DNA of 36,023 nt. Source: a virus. Taxonomy: Duplodnaviria; Heunggongvirae; Uroviricota; Caudoviricetes. Location of the stretch: the IMG/VR virus record IMGVR_UViG_2778261035_000011; one strand, given 5' to 3'. Every line of letters begins with the position of its first letter. Position 1 is the stretch's first letter. A model generated the notes under the pieces. It worked only from the letters and a program-made list of their open reading frames with translations, was not told the origin of the DNA and did no database searches. The translations under genes and the position numbers were made by a program. This document shows, piece by piece, positions 1 to 26,907 of the stretch.

Positions 1-447
1 TCAGTTTCGTTTACATTTATATGTCTTAAAAATATTCACATCATCTCGGATATAAAGATTTTTTCCTGATTTATCAACGATAAAATACTTTATAACCGCA
101 GGATTTCTAGTCAAAGCATAGAGATAATCAGTCCCTTTAATCTTTTCATCCTTGTCTTGTTCGTCAATTTGGCCTGTTTCTATCTGAGTGTATAGTTCAC
201 CTGTATCAAGGTCTGTCCATGACCCCATATCAACGCCCATATGCATACGAATACCGTGGCAGGTCCAAAAACCAGAGGCAGGGGCTTTATTTGCAACACT
301 CTTATCTGGATCTATCCCGGCGGACCTTAAGACTGCATCAGCAGCCACTTCAGGATCAAAATCTTTTTCTTGAGCGTGATTGACTGAGGAGGCGGTTAGT
401 ACGAATAGGCTGATGATGGTACTGATTAGCAATTTTGATTTTTTCAT
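1..447 (-). CDS. small secreted protein of unknown function (predicted signal peptide, two Cys); possible cargo/moron gene beyond mom
   Basis: ORF 1..477 minus ends with stop at 1-3. Internal ATG at 447 is preceded by a GGAG-like RBS and gives N-terminus MKKSKLLISTIISLFVLTASSVNHA followed by QEK, a typical Sec signal with AxA-like cleavage site. Region is visibly AT-rich compared with the rest of the window. No family recognised. Confidence 0.5.
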   Translation of the reverse strand: MKKSKLLISTIISLFVLTASSVNHAQEKDFDPEVAADAVLRSAGIDPDKSVANKAPASGFWTCHGIRMHMGVDMGSWTDLDTGELYTQIETGQIDEQDKDEKIKGTDYLYALTRNPAVIKYFIVDKSGKNLYIRDDVNIFKTYKCKRN

Positions 448-491
448 CTGATATGCTCCGTATGTGAGTAAATACATAAATTTATATGATA

Positions 492-1229
492 CTAATCAGA
501 ACTGCTTTTTGGGTATGGCTGAATCCTGAATAGATTAGTATTTAGTCGCTTCCTTGCTCGCTTGTTCAGGAACCTGATGTAGCGATACTGATTAAATTTG
601 TGCACCACGGCACGCTCTTTATTAGCCCGTAAATACACGCCTCGTTGTCCACCGCGCTTAATTGCGTTCATCGTTATCTCGTGATACCACTCACCATCCA
701 GCTCGTAGAACGTGCTTTCATGGCTGCCAATAAAATCAAAATTCGACGCCTGATACACAACGCCTGCGCGTCCGCAGCGTTCGTCAGCAAAGGACTGAAC
801 CCACTCCACTGACGGATACAGTAATCTGATAACTTTCAGCGCGTAGCTGATGGCCCGTGATTCAGAGTTGCGGGGCATGTCGTCGTGTAGCCACATGCGA
901 TTCAACTCCATATAGCCCCGGTTATCCGTTTCAAGCACGACACGACGACCTGAGTTGGGGTTAAGGGCATATCCCCACTGGAGAACGCCAACCAGATCGC
1001 GTCCGCTGAATACTCCTAGGTGGAGGTAAGAGTTATTCACAAAACGGCGGGAATAGTGCTTTGTCTGAATAATTGTGCGGGCCAGCCAGCAGGATATGGT
1101 TTCAACGCGCAGCTCCTTTGAACCATAGCCAACAATCTGGCCTTCATACTCAATAACGCACGGTTTCGTCAGAATGCGTGATTTTTTCTCTTTTCCCACA
1201 ATGTTTCTCCGTGGGATGCTCGCAGGCAT
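492..1229 (-). CDS. mom: Mom DNA-modification protein (adenine modification, anti-restriction)
   Basis: Position directly after com with 5' end overlapping the com 3' end, as in phage Mu; length about 235-245 aa. Exact start uncertain: ATG at 1229 or in-frame GTG at 1199. Confidence 0.85.
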
Positions 1230-1338
1230 TCAGCATTATGATGTGACGTTTGCAACGCGGACACCTGATTTCAATGTGATCAAAGGAATCCGCCTTAAAT
1301 AACAGTTTGTTGCAGTTTTTACAGCGAATTGATTTCAT
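1150..1338 (-). CDS. com: Com zinc-finger translational activator of mom
   Basis: 62 aa, [13 protein letters not shown]...CPRCKRH with four-Cys zinc finger; AAAGGAGG RBS upstream of ATG at 1338; 3' end overlaps mom 5' end. Confidence 0.9.
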
Positions 1339-1412
1339 CTCACCTCCTTTGCATCAATTCGCCACTATCTTAAAAAACATCATGGGTTGAGTGTGGTTAT
1401 TGGGGCATAATC

Positions 1413-1447
1413 GATCTGTATTACCGATCGATTTAATTGATTCGATC
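1413..1447. promoter_or_regulatory. cluster of three GATC (Dam) sites in the mom operon upstream control region
   Basis: GATC at 1413-1416, 1426-1429 and 1444-1447, lying 75-110 bp upstream of the com start on the transcribed side and overlapping the gin stop codon. Matches the known Dam/OxyR-controlled region of Mu Pmom. Confidence 0.6.
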
Positions 1448-2014
1448 GTCGTTTTCTATATGCGCTCGTTTCGCGGGGTGTTTTTTATACAGAGTTGACA
1501 GGGCCACATCGTAGATCAATGCAACCTGCTTGCGGGGGATTCCTTGTGCTAATAAACGCCCGGCCTGCTCCCATTCCGCTTTGGTTAGTTTAGGTGGTCG
1601 CCCACCAATACGGCCTTTATTTCTGGCGGCAGCAAGTCCAGCCATCGTTCGCTCGATGATTAGTTCTCGTTCCATTTCAGCCAGGGCACCCATAACGTGG
1701 AAGAAAAAACGCCCCATTGGAGAAGATGTGTCTATGCTGTCGGTCAGACTGCGAAAATTAATCCCTCGCTCCCGTAGTTCCCCGACGAGAGAAATCAGAT
1801 GTTTCATGCTTCGCCCGAGGCGATCCAGTTTCCAGACAACCAGCGTGTCACCTTTTTGAAGGCGTTTTAAAGCGCGTTTTAATCCCGGTCGGTCTGTCTT
1901 TGTCCCGCTTAATTTATCTTCAAATATTTGTTCACATCCTGCACAAACAAGAGCGTTTCGTTGCAGGTCTGTATTCTGGTCATTTGTTGATACCCTTACA
2001 TAGCCAATCAGCAC
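1433..2014 (-). CDS. gin: Gin serine DNA invertase (resolvase/invertase family)
   Basis: 193 aa, N-terminus MLIGYVRVSTNDQNTDLQ with catalytic Ser motif typical of Hin/Gin/Cin invertases; C-terminal HTH; sits immediately outside gixR. Confidence 0.95.
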   Translation of the reverse strand: MLIGYVRVSTNDQNTDLQRNALVCAGCEQIFEDKLSGTKTDRPGLKRALKRLQKGDTLVVWKLDRLGRSMKHLISLVGELRERGINFRSLTDSIDTSSPMGRFFFHVMGALAEMERELIIERTMAGLAAARNKGRIGGRPPKLTKAEWEQAGRLLAQGIPRKQVALIYDVALSTLYKKHPAKRAHIENDDRIN

Positions 2015-15181: not shown

Positions 15182-15384
15182 TTCGATTTACTCCGTTTTT
15201 TCGGCGCAGCGTCGGTATCATCCGCCGTGTTTTCGGTGCTCCCGACTTCAACCACATCACCGGCTGCAAGGCGACGTATCCAGAAACTGTTACGGGGCTT
15301 TTCTTCTCCCTCAGACGCCAGTAATTTCATCGTGAGCGGGTCACGGATGGCTTTTCCCGCTGCGGGTTTAATTTTCAGCATCAT
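15178..15384 (-). CDS. small hypothetical protein (Mu gp38-like)
   Basis: 68 aa basic C-terminus; overlaps the L start; synteny. Confidence 0.5.
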
Positions 15385-15916
15385 GATCCTTTTCCTGATT
15401 CACATTGATATGTGCGGCAAATTCCGGGGTTTCGTCCGGGAATTTCCAGGTCTGCCAGTGACGCTCGTAATCATCCAGCGAATCCATGTCCACCACGGAC
15501 GGCAGCGGGGTAGTGCCACTGAACAGAACGCCGTAAAGCACCACACCGGCATTGATACGGTTGTCGTCACAAAGATTTCTGACCTGCGTCAGCCTCATCC
15601 CGGTGGTCGGGCCAAACGTCTGACCGTTAACACCGGCAATCAGTCGCTCCACAATCTGATAAATACCGGGCCGGTTTACCGGTTCCCCGTTCAGCAACTC
15701 CGCCACGACAAAAAATGCCCAGCGACTTTCAACTTCCCGACGCGTACGCCCCTCACCACAGCCCATCCATGCCAGAAATACCGATGGAGGGGCCAGAAAG
15801 AGACGGTGTACATCCTCGTTAGTCCATGTGCCGGTAAGGGGTTCCACCTGCCGCAGGGTTGCCCCAAACAACTCACGAACGCGCGCCAGCAGTGCGGCTT
15901 CGGTTTCTTCCAGCAT
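15368..15916 (-). CDS. K: head-tail joining protein K (Mu gp37-like)
   Basis: 182 aa; synteny after J. Confidence 0.6.
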   Translation of the reverse strand: MLEETEAALLARVRELFGATLRQVEPLTGTWTNEDVHRLFLAPPSVFLAWMGCGEGRTRREVESRWAFFVVAELLNGEPVNRPGIYQIVERLIAGVNGQTFGPTTGMRLTQVRNLCDDNRINAGVVLYGVLFSGTTPLPSVVDMDSLDDYERHWQTWKFPDETPEFAAHINVNQEKDHDAEN

Positions 15917-16341
15917 CAGATAAACCCCTTCTGTTTTCGTGAAAAAACAGGCGGATCAGACTGAACCTGCACAAGATCCTCTCCCTCCGGCGACGCTGCC
16001 GTTCTGCTTTCCACGCCGGGATCTGTTTTGCCATCGCGCACCTGTTCCAGCCAGCGCACCGTGTCCCTGTAAGTTGCGGTGATCTGCTCGGTGGGTTGTG
16101 ATTCATTCAGATAAAACCAGGCCACCACGCAACACTGCCGTTTCAGCAGTGAGGGGACGACGGTAAGCGGCAGAACAAAGCGCGCGGCGAGATAGCCATC
16201 AATAAAGGCCGAAGCATCTGCCAGTGCCTGTTCTGCCACGGCATCATCCGGCTGCCCGTCCGCTGTTTTAGGGCGGGTGAGAATATCCAGCCGCGTACGT
16301 GTATAGCGGGCGCACAGGTCATTTACCGTCGCGTAATTCAT
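15916..16341 (-). CDS. J: head completion/connector protein J (Mu gp36-like)
   Basis: 141 aa; synteny. Confidence 0.6.
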   Translation of the reverse strand: MNYATVNDLCARYTRTRLDILTRPKTADGQPDDAVAEQALADASAFIDGYLAARFVLPLTVVPSLLKRQCCVVAWFYLNESQPTEQITATYRDTVRWLEQVRDGKTDPGVESRTAASPEGEDLVQVQSDPPVFSRKQKGFI

Positions 16342-26461: not shown

Positions 26462-26488
26462 GGAAATAACCGGCAGGATGCCGGTTAT
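26462..26488 (-). terminator. putative intrinsic terminator at the end of C (end of middle transcript)
   Basis: Hairpin AACCGGCA-GGA-TGCCGGTT overlapping the C stop codon, followed on the minus-strand RNA by UUAUUUCCU. Confidence 0.45.
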
Positions 26489-26907
26489 TTCTGGCTTTCA
26501 GGTGAGAACAGATCAGGCTGATGACGTCGTGTATGCAGCTTTCTCTGGCGGGCAATAATCTGGTAGATCTGCGGCTGGGACAGGCGATACTGGCAACGCA
26601 GTTCTTCCATGTTACGACCATTGAACTGGCAGTAAAGCAAATCGTCGCGTAACGCGGTCAGGATCGTATCGCCGCAGGGGATGTAAAACTGCCGTCCCCC
26701 CAGAAAACAGGACAGGGCAACGGCCTGTTTACGGGCAAGCTCACGGGGATTGCTGACGTTCTGGCGTTTCAGTTCGTTTTCCAGAACATCAATCAGATCA
26801 ACCACCGAACGGGGCCAGCGTGATTCCAGTTCCGGGGCCGGGATGTTATCAATATGTCCGATTAACTGGCGAATTGCCGGATCGTGTTCAAATAAATCAT
26901 GCTGCAT
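26485..26907 (-). CDS. C: late gene transcriptional activator C (Mor/C family)
   Basis: 140 aa; clear paralogue of the Mor ORF at 27700..28089 (shared ...FNGRN..EL...Y..S...IY.I. C-terminal HTH region); immediately upstream of the lysis/late genes. Confidence 0.85.
   Translation of the reverse strand: MQHDLFEHDPAIRQLIGHIDNIPAPELESRWPRSVVDLIDVLENELKRQNVSNPRELARKQAVALSCFLGGRQFYIPCGDTILTALRDDLLYCQFNGRNMEELRCQYRLSQPQIYQIIARQRKLHTRRHQPDLFSPESQK

What the first reader, a model, noticed from the sequence alone, without database searches (positions are those of the whole stretch)
1339..1447. Three clustered GATC sites upstream of com-mom overlapping the gin stop
Three Dam sites spaced 13 and 18 bp apart lie in the expected position of the mom control region. 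In Mu, methylation of such sites blocks OxyR repression and the promoter needs the C activator. The arrangement is conserved here, suggesting the same epigenetic control.
Basis: partly seen in the sequence, partly recalled or inferred. Interest (0 to 1): 0.4.

Follow-up and report, generated by a model that had tools for sequence, protein, structure and literature searches.

The report
Phage Mu mom promoter Dam/OxyR sites
The three clustered GATC sites are real and base-for-base the same as the well-studied control region of the phage Mu mom operon, where host Dam methylation stops the OxyR repressor from binding; it is an ordinary, already-known feature.

Summary
Observation confirmed. GATC sites lie at 1413-1416, 1426-1429 and 1444-1447, 13 and 18 bp apart start to start. 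They straddle the gin stop codon (1433-1435, minus strand) and lie upstream of com (1150-1338) and mom (492-1229).

The window is a Mu/D108-type phage read in reverse. The 221 bp at window:1300-1520 are 100% identical to phage Mu AF083977. This is therefore the published mom control region itself, not a look-alike.

Published oligonucleotide coordinates place +1 at window 1360. The GATCs then lie at -53/-56, -66/-69 and -84/-87. They sit just upstream of the C-activator site TTATGCCCCAATAA (1397-1410), the -35 ACCACA, a 19-bp spacer with a T6 run, and the -10 TAAGAT. The OxyR consensus matches 13 of 20 positions over the triad, tied best in the window. The C gene is present and 97.9% identical to Mu C.

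Diverged com-mom operons keep the same GATC spacing module (13, 18/19, 31 bp), even where gin is absent. E. coli agn43 has it too.

Interpretation supported. Novelty: already known. Interest is low. Methylation dependence itself was not tested here.

The parts
1444..1447 (.). Distal GATC (Dam site), -87..-84 relative to the mom transcription start. It lies inside the last codons of gin and is part of a CGATCG (PvuI) palindrome.
   Evidence: Invariant in 9 Mu-type phages.
1426..1429 (.). Middle GATC (Dam site), -69..-66, just downstream of the gin stop. Also part of a CGATCG palindrome.
   Evidence: Invariant.
1413..1416 (.). Proximal GATC (Dam site), -56..-53, abutting the C-activator site.
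   Evidence: Invariant.
1414..1459 (-). OxyR-consensus-like region covering the GATC triad. It matches 13/20 at 1414-1450 and 12/20 at 1423-1459, the latter starting with ATAG at 1456-1459 (-99..-96).
   Evidence: The 13/20 match is tied for best among about 36,000 window positions. Actual OxyR binding is taken from the literature on the identical Mu sequence.
1433..1435 (-). gin stop codon TAA (-75..-73), located between the distal and middle GATC.
   Evidence: It is CAA in D108, SfMu and others, which lengthens Gin.
1397..1410 (-). C-activator binding core TTATGCCCCAATAA (TTAT-N6-ATAA, -50..-37), overlapping the -35 element.
   Evidence: Identical to Mu. C site overlapping -35 as described in PMC4461284. 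The palindrome assignment is from my own knowledge of the Mu literature.
1392..1397 (-). -35 element ACCACA of Pmom (-37..-32).
   Evidence: Poor -35 and suboptimal spacing are described in PMC3378877.
1367..1378 (-). T6 run (1372-1377) and -10 element TAAGAT (1367-1372, -12..-7). The spacer is 19 bp.
   Evidence: The tin7 oligo in PMC4461284 changes TTTTTT to TTTGTT here. No consensus sigma-70 promoter was detected.
1360..1360 (-). Transcription start (+1) of the com-mom operon.
   Evidence: Deduced from the 78-mer stated to span -58..+20 and from the mom reverse primer stated to anneal downstream of +56. Both agree (PMC4461284, PMC3378877).
1150..1338 (-). com, a zinc-ribbon translational activator of mom.
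   Evidence: Pfam PF10122, E = 2.7e-9. Annotated as Com in Mu and D108.
492..1229 (-). mom, the DNA adenine modification enzyme. This is the longest ORF; the Mu record starts it at the GTG at 1199.
   Evidence: Pfam PF25680, E = 2.7e-75..
1433..2014 (-). gin, the G-segment serine invertase, whose 3' end carries the distal GATC.
   Evidence: Pfam Resolvase + HTH_7..
26488..26907 (-). C, the late-gene transcription activator (Mor family) needed at Pmom.
   Evidence: tblastn with Mu C gives 97.9% identity over 140 aa. Pfam PF08765.

Best explanation
This is the transcriptional control region of the com-mom operon of a Mu/D108-type phage, identical in sequence to that of phage Mu. The three GATC sites lie in and beside a binding site for the host LysR-type regulator OxyR, at about -54 to -99. 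When the sites are unmethylated, OxyR binds and represses the promoter. Full methylation by host Dam prevents OxyR binding. Even then the promoter is intrinsically poor, with -35 ACCACA, a 19-bp spacer containing a T6 run, and -10 TAAGAT. It fires only when the phage activator C binds TTATGCCCCAATAA, immediately downstream of the proximal GATC. Translation of mom additionally needs Com. Shown here: the sites, their positions, sequence identity to Mu, presence of all partner genes, and evolutionary conservation of the GATC module. Inferred from the Mu literature: OxyR binding, methylation sensitivity and C dependence.
For: The sites and their spacing are. The window matches Mu-type phages at 96-99% identity, and the 221-bp control region is 100% identical to Mu AF083977, whose record marks the late promoter here. 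The +1 position was fixed at 1360 by two independent published oligonucleotide coordinates. The OxyR consensus matches 13/20 over the triad, tied for top among about 36,000 positions. No consensus sigma-70 promoter is present, as expected for an activator-dependent promoter. Com, Mom, Gin and C (Mor family) were all identified. Conservation is strong: of 20 clusters of com-upstream sequence (Mom identity 69-100%), 18 keep GATC pairs spaced 13 and/or 18-19 bp, and 11 keep a full triad. GATC density is 18.1/kb in the 130 nt upstream of com against 2.3/kb elsewhere in the same loci, P about 4e-26. The triad persists where the upstream gene is a tail-fibre assembly gene instead of gin (L010, L079 group). 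E. coli agn43, a proven Dam/OxyR switch, has the same module with spacings 19 and 13. Literature: PMC7549136, PMC3378877, PMC4461284, PMC2909390.
Against: Nothing in the sequence argues against it. Several limits apply. No methylation or expression data exist for this phage. The primary papers (Bolker & Kahmann 1989; Sun & Hattman 1996; Hattman & Sun 1997) could not be opened, so the exact OxyR footprint limits are not cited. As I recall, the OxyR consensus was derived partly from the mom site, which makes the 13/20 match partly circular. The within-window clustering statistic alone is weak (P about 0.11). Fis also binds this region at -98 and -49 (PMC3378877), so OxyR is not the only silencer.
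Confidence: 0.93

Rival explanations
1. The GATC cluster is a chance or coding by-product of the 3' end of gin, with no regulatory role.
For: One of the three sites lies in gin codons. In D108 and SfMu the longer gin covers more of them. A cluster this tight somewhere in the window has P of about 0.11.
Against: The same 18+13 or 31+13 spacing is kept in diverged loci that have no gin upstream (L010, L079/L082/L087). GATC is 8-fold enriched upstream of com across 20 sequence clusters. The sequence is identical to the experimentally studied Mu region.
Confidence: 0.01
2. The sites act mainly through hemimethylation sensing after replication, not through a simple methylated/unmethylated OxyR switch. 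SeqA or OxyR would bind hemimethylated DNA and so time mom expression relative to Mu replication.
For: Spacings of 13, 18 and 31 bp are the sort that paired-GATC binders use. The title of Hattman & Sun 1997, cited in PMC2909390 and PMC3378877, says OxyR can bind hemimethylated Pmom DNA in dam+ cells. Mu DNA replicates intensely before late transcription.
Against: This refines the OxyR/Dam model more than it competes with it. No evidence for SeqA at Pmom was found in the papers read. The OxyR-consensus elements (ATAG at -99, 13/20 match) are conserved along with the GATCs.
Confidence: 0.04
3. Silencing here is due mainly to nucleoid proteins such as Fis, and the GATC sites are secondary.
For: Fis footprints at -133/-115, -107/-84, -60/-22 and -7/+12 overlap the distal and proximal GATC (PMC3378877).
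Against: The same paper treats Fis as an additional layer on top of Dam/OxyR and C. The Fis sites shown there to block RNA polymerase are the promoter-proximal ones (-49, -38, +3), not those in the GATC region. Fis does not explain strict GATC conservation.
Confidence: 0.02

Closest known systems
Phage Mu mom operon control region (Pmom with its upstream Dam/OxyR region and C-binding site)
   Same: 100% identical over 221 bp, covering -160 to +61 relative to the start. It has the same three GATCs, the same C site, the same -35/-10 elements and T6 spacer, and the same com start. C protein is 97.9% identical.
   Different: The control region shows no difference. The phage as a whole is closer to D108/PhiR68_1 at the right end, with an extra gene 56 downstream of mom (window 1-477) that Mu lacks.
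D108, SfMu, PhiR68_1, Mu_3F6 and Yersinia vB_YpM Mu-like phages
   Same: All three GATCs and their spacing are invariant. The promoter core is nearly invariant.
   Different: In D108, SfMu and most others the gin stop TAA is CAA. gin then runs on through the middle GATC, and in some through the proximal GATC. The window has the Mu-type TAA.
E. coli agn43 (flu) Dam/OxyR phase-variation switch
   Same: It has three GATCs with spacings 19 and 13 in an OxyR site. It aligns with the module ATAG-N9-GATC-N14/15-GATC-N9-GATC seen upstream of com. Methylation abrogates OxyR binding (PMC2909390).
   Different: At agn43 OxyR is the sole repressor of a constitutive promoter and gives heritable ON/OFF phases. 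At mom an activator (C) and a translational activator (Com) are also required. [quoted passage not shown]
Salmonella P22 gtr operon Dam/OxyR switch
   Same: Expression is controlled by OxyR and by GATC methylation in its binding sites (PMC2909390).
   Different: gtr uses two alternative OxyR sites, one activating and one repressing, each with paired GATCs. mom has one repressing region.

Membership tests
Mu-type mom operon control region (Dam/OxyR/C-controlled Pmom) | Three closely spaced GATC sites (within about 35-43 bp) just upstream of the promoter | tested here: met
   Sites at 1413, 1426 and 1444, i.e. -53 to -87. Identical to Mu. [quoted passage not shown]
Mu-type mom operon control region (Dam/OxyR/C-controlled Pmom) | OxyR recognition sequence overlapping the GATCs | tested here: met
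   13/20 match to ATAGnTnnnAnCTAT-N7-ATAGnTnnnAnCTAT at 1414-1450, tied for best in the window. 12/20 at 1423-1459. This is sequence only; binding was not tested.
Mu-type mom operon control region (Dam/OxyR/C-controlled Pmom) | C-activator site overlapping a poor -35, a 19-bp spacer with a T run, and a non-consensus -10 | tested here: met
   TTATGCCCCAATAA at 1397-1410, ACCACA at 1392-1397, T6 at 1372-1377, TAAGAT at 1367-1372. No consensus promoter found. Description in PMC3378877 and PMC4461284.
Mu-type mom operon control region (Dam/OxyR/C-controlled Pmom) | Overlapping com (zinc ribbon) and mom genes downstream | tested here: met
   PF10122 and PF25680 hits. ORFs overlap at 1150-1229.
Mu-type mom operon control region (Dam/OxyR/C-controlled Pmom) | Cognate C activator encoded by the same phage | tested here: met
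   Gene at 26488-26907, 97.9% identical to Mu C, Mor family.
Mu-type mom operon control region (Dam/OxyR/C-controlled Pmom) | Expression depends on Dam methylation, and the dependence is relieved by loss of OxyR | not testable with these tools
   Needs dam/oxyR genetics or methylome data. Inferred from identity to Mu.
agn43-type Dam/OxyR phase-variation switch | Three GATCs inside one OxyR site with about 19 + 13 bp spacing | tested here: met
   Window 18 + 13, agn43 19 + 13. They align in register.
agn43-type Dam/OxyR phase-variation switch | Heritable ON/OFF phase variation from competition between Dam and OxyR | not testable with these tools
   PMC2909390 states it is not known whether mom expression phase-varies.

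The most novel reading that the evidence does not exclude
The GATC module upstream of com (ATAG-N9-GATC-N14/15-GATC-N9-GATC) is shared by many diverged com-mom operons and by agn43. It could therefore act in lysogens as a true heritable Dam/OxyR phase switch that pre-sets which cells can express mom on induction, not merely as a methylation check. That would be a new behaviour of a known element, not a new element. Nothing in this window distinguishes it from Mu.
Probability: 0.07. Interest if true: 0.4.

Novelty: already known. Interest (0 to 1): 0.08.

Why it matters
It matters little as a discovery. This is the textbook example of Dam-methylation-sensitive repression by OxyR at the phage Mu mom promoter, present here in identical sequence. 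Its use is for annotation. It fixes the com-mom promoter, the OxyR/Dam region and the C site in this phage. The side survey shows that the GATC spacing module is a conserved hallmark of com-mom operons well beyond Mu. That makes it a handy marker for predicting Dam/OxyR control in uncharacterised Mu-like prophages.

Tried and rejected
1. Chance clustering. Simulation gave only P of about 0.11 window-wide, so the argument does not rest on it.

2. Coding by-product of gin. Rejected because the triad persists without gin.

3. Primary papers PMC401183, PMC147061 and PMC146201 are not held. Footprint limits are therefore not quoted, and secondary sources were used.

4. Two paper searches failed because the term 'Mu' is too short.

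5. The consensus promoter scan found nothing in 1200-1600. This is consistent with a weak activator-dependent promoter, not evidence against it.

6. A shared C-site pattern CCAWAAYCMC found only two other places, 26447 and 9563 (probably Plys and PP). It does not fit Pmom itself, so it was not used.

7. No complete E. coli genome carries this exact phage. The closest records are PhiR68_1 and D108.

8. My first com-finder missed 12 loci and mis-set some starts. This was corrected.

Full report
**1. Observation**

GATC occurs at 1413-1416, 1426-1429 and 1444-1447 (sequence).

All the surrounding genes are on the minus strand:
- gin is 1433..2014.
- com is 1150..1338.
- The longest mom ORF is 492..1229.

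The gin stop TAA (1433-1435) lies between the middle and distal GATC. The distal GATC is inside the last gin codons. The whole triad lies 75-109 nt upstream of the com ATG.

This is the tightest 3-GATC cluster in the window (35 bp; the next spans 70 bp). GATC is depleted overall, with 71 observed against 133 +/- 10 in shuffles. Simulation gives P of about 0.11 for such a cluster anywhere in 36 kb, and P of about 0.0014 for three or more sites in this specific 109 bp.

**2. Identity of the region**

The window matches Mu-type phages over its length in reverse orientation. Identities are 97.5% to PhiR68_1, 98.2% to D108 and 97.4% to Mu.

I aligned window:1300-1520 (minus strand) with eight Mu-type phages. 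The window is 100% identical to Mu AF083977 over all 221 columns. The three GATCs are invariant in all nine sequences. The Mu record annotates the late promoter exactly here.

Pfam confirms the gene assignments:
- Com: PF10122.
- Mom: PF25680.
- Gin: Resolvase + HTH_7.

A gene at 26488-26907 is 97.9% identical to Mu C and belongs to the Mor family.

**3. Anatomy in promoter coordinates**

Two independent published anchors place the transcription start at window 1360, a minus-strand G. The first is the 78-mer tin7 fragment, stated to span -58 to +20. The second is the mom reverse primer, stated to anneal downstream of +56 (PMC4461284, PMC3378877).

The published BstUI and PvuI truncations that remove the Fis sites at -123 and -98 also fit. 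CGCG lies at -115, and CGATCG lies at -88 and -70.

| Element | Position relative to +1 | Window coordinates |
|---|---|---|
| Distal GATC | -87/-84 | 1444-1447 |
| gin stop TAA | -75/-73 | 1433-1435 |
| Middle GATC | -69/-66 | 1426-1429 |
| Proximal GATC | -56/-53 | 1413-1416 |
| C site TTATGCCCCAATAA | -50/-37 | 1397-1410 |
| -35 ACCACA | -37/-32 | 1392-1397 |
| T6 run | -17/-12 | 1372-1377 |
| -10 TAAGAT | -12/-7 | 1367-1372 |

The spacer between -35 and -10 is 19 bp. A consensus sigma-70 scan finds no promoter in 1200-1600. That is what is expected of the weak, out-of-phase, activator-dependent Pmom described in PMC3378877 and PMC4461284.

**4. OxyR site**

I scanned the OxyR consensus ATAGnTnnnAnCTAT-N7-ATAGnTnnnAnCTAT over the whole window. 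It gives 13/20 at 1414-1450. Only three distinct places in 36 kb score this high. Matches of 12/20 occur at 1405-1441 and 1423-1459. The last begins with ATAG at -99.

As I recall, the consensus was derived partly from mom, so this is only supportive evidence.

**5. Mechanism**

The literature on the identical Mu sequence states the following:
- Dam and OxyR govern Pmom transcription (PMC3378877, PMC2909390).
- C recruits RNA polymerase by unwinding the out-of-phase promoter and then promotes promoter escape (PMC4461284).
- Com is needed to translate mom (PMC3378877).
- Fis adds another repressive layer (PMC3378877).

I therefore take the same mechanism to apply here. What is shown is sequence identity and the presence of all parts. 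What is inferred is binding and methylation dependence.

**6. Comparative test beyond Mu**

Using a Mom alignment, I fetched 80 viral-contig loci and 3 genome loci, with Mom identity from 52% to 100%. One of the three genome loci, L012 (52% identity), is cut within com, so it was left out of the upstream survey.

I clustered the 200 nt upstream of com at 80% identity, which gave 20 clusters:
- 18 carry a GATC pair spaced 13 and/or 18-19 bp.
- 11 carry a full triad, either 18/19 + 13 or 31 + 13.
- A further group (L079/L082/L085/L087) has 31 + 13.

Several of these loci have a tail-fibre assembly gene instead of gin upstream. The cluster is therefore not a by-product of gin coding.

GATC density is 18.1/kb in the 130 nt upstream of com against 2.3/kb elsewhere in the same loci. 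That is 47 sites observed against 6 expected, P about 4e-26.

Anchored alignment shows a shared module, roughly ATAG-N9-GATC-N14/15-GATC-N9-GATC(G/A)AT. The E. coli agn43 regulatory region, a proven Dam/OxyR switch, has GATC spacings of 19 and 13 and aligns in register.

Two lineages (L091, L092) have no GATC upstream of com.

**7. A natural contrast**

An SJ46-like P1-type phage-plasmid (NZ_CP159120) carries a remnant of this region downstream of a pin/gin-like invertase. It has lost com after about 13 codons and has lost mom entirely.

The promoter part is about 94% identical to the window. All three GATCs are changed by single substitutions (GCTC, GGTC, GATT). This is an anecdote only. It is consistent with the GATCs mattering only when com-mom is present.

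**8. Verdict**

The feature is the already-known mom control region of phage Mu, present in identical sequence in a D108/PhiR68_1-like relative. Novelty: already known. Interest is low.

The only mildly open point is whether this Dam/OxyR module produces heritable phase variation of mom. PMC2909390 says this is unknown.

Noticed in passing
window 1-36023: GATC is strongly under-represented across the whole phage window: 71 sites against 133 +/- 10 in dinucleotide-preserving shuffles, and all 100 shuffles had at least 71. This makes the local triad stand out more.
   Followed up: partly
L013:1490-1760 (E. coli plasmid NZ_CP159120, SJ46-like phage-plasmid): A remnant of the mom promoter sits downstream of a pin/gin-like invertase. 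com is truncated after about 13 codons and mom is absent. The promoter core is about 94% identical to the window. All three GATCs carry single substitutions (GCTC, GGTC, GATT).
   Followed up: partly
window 1433-1435 (compare L002, L004-L008): The gin stop codon is polymorphic. It is TAA in this window, Mu and PhiR68_1, and CAA in D108, SfMu, Mu_3F6 and the Yersinia phages. In the latter, Gin is 4 or 12 residues longer and reads through the middle GATC, and in some the proximal GATC.
   Followed up: partly
window 1-477 (minus strand): An ORF downstream of mom is annotated 'D108-specific protein' (gene 56) in D108 and PhiR68_1 and is absent from Mu. It has a signal-peptide-like N-terminus (MKKSKLLISTIISLFVLTASS) and no Pfam match.
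   Followed up: partly
window 1199-1229 (minus strand): The mom start codon is annotated differently in related records. The Mu record uses the GTG equivalent to window 1199 (231 aa). D108 uses the ATG equivalent to 1229 (245 aa). PhiR68_1 has an intermediate 235-aa version.
   Followed up: no
L091 and L092 (IMG/VR contigs), upstream of com: Two diverged com-mom lineages (Mom about 69-70% identical) have no GATC at all in the 200 nt upstream of com, unlike 18 of 20 sequence clusters. They may use a different control, or their hosts may lack Dam.
   Followed up: no
window 1462-1481 (+ strand): A terminator-like hairpin plus T-run lies on the strand antisense to the gin 3' end. It would be downstream of the divergent momP2 promoter mentioned in PMC3378877. 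It may be chance: 2 were found against 0.4 expected in shuffles.
   Followed up: no
window 15954-16084: The second-densest GATC cluster in the window has four sites in 131 bp (15954, 15975, 16020, 16081). It spans the junction of two minus-strand ORFs (15368-15916 and 15916-16341).
   Followed up: no
L094:318-353 (E. coli K-12 agn43/flu regulatory region): The three GATCs of agn43 are spaced 19 and 13 bp apart, with ATAG elements upstream. They align in register with the com-upstream module of Mu-like phages. agn43 lies in cryptic prophage CP4-44.
   Followed up: partly
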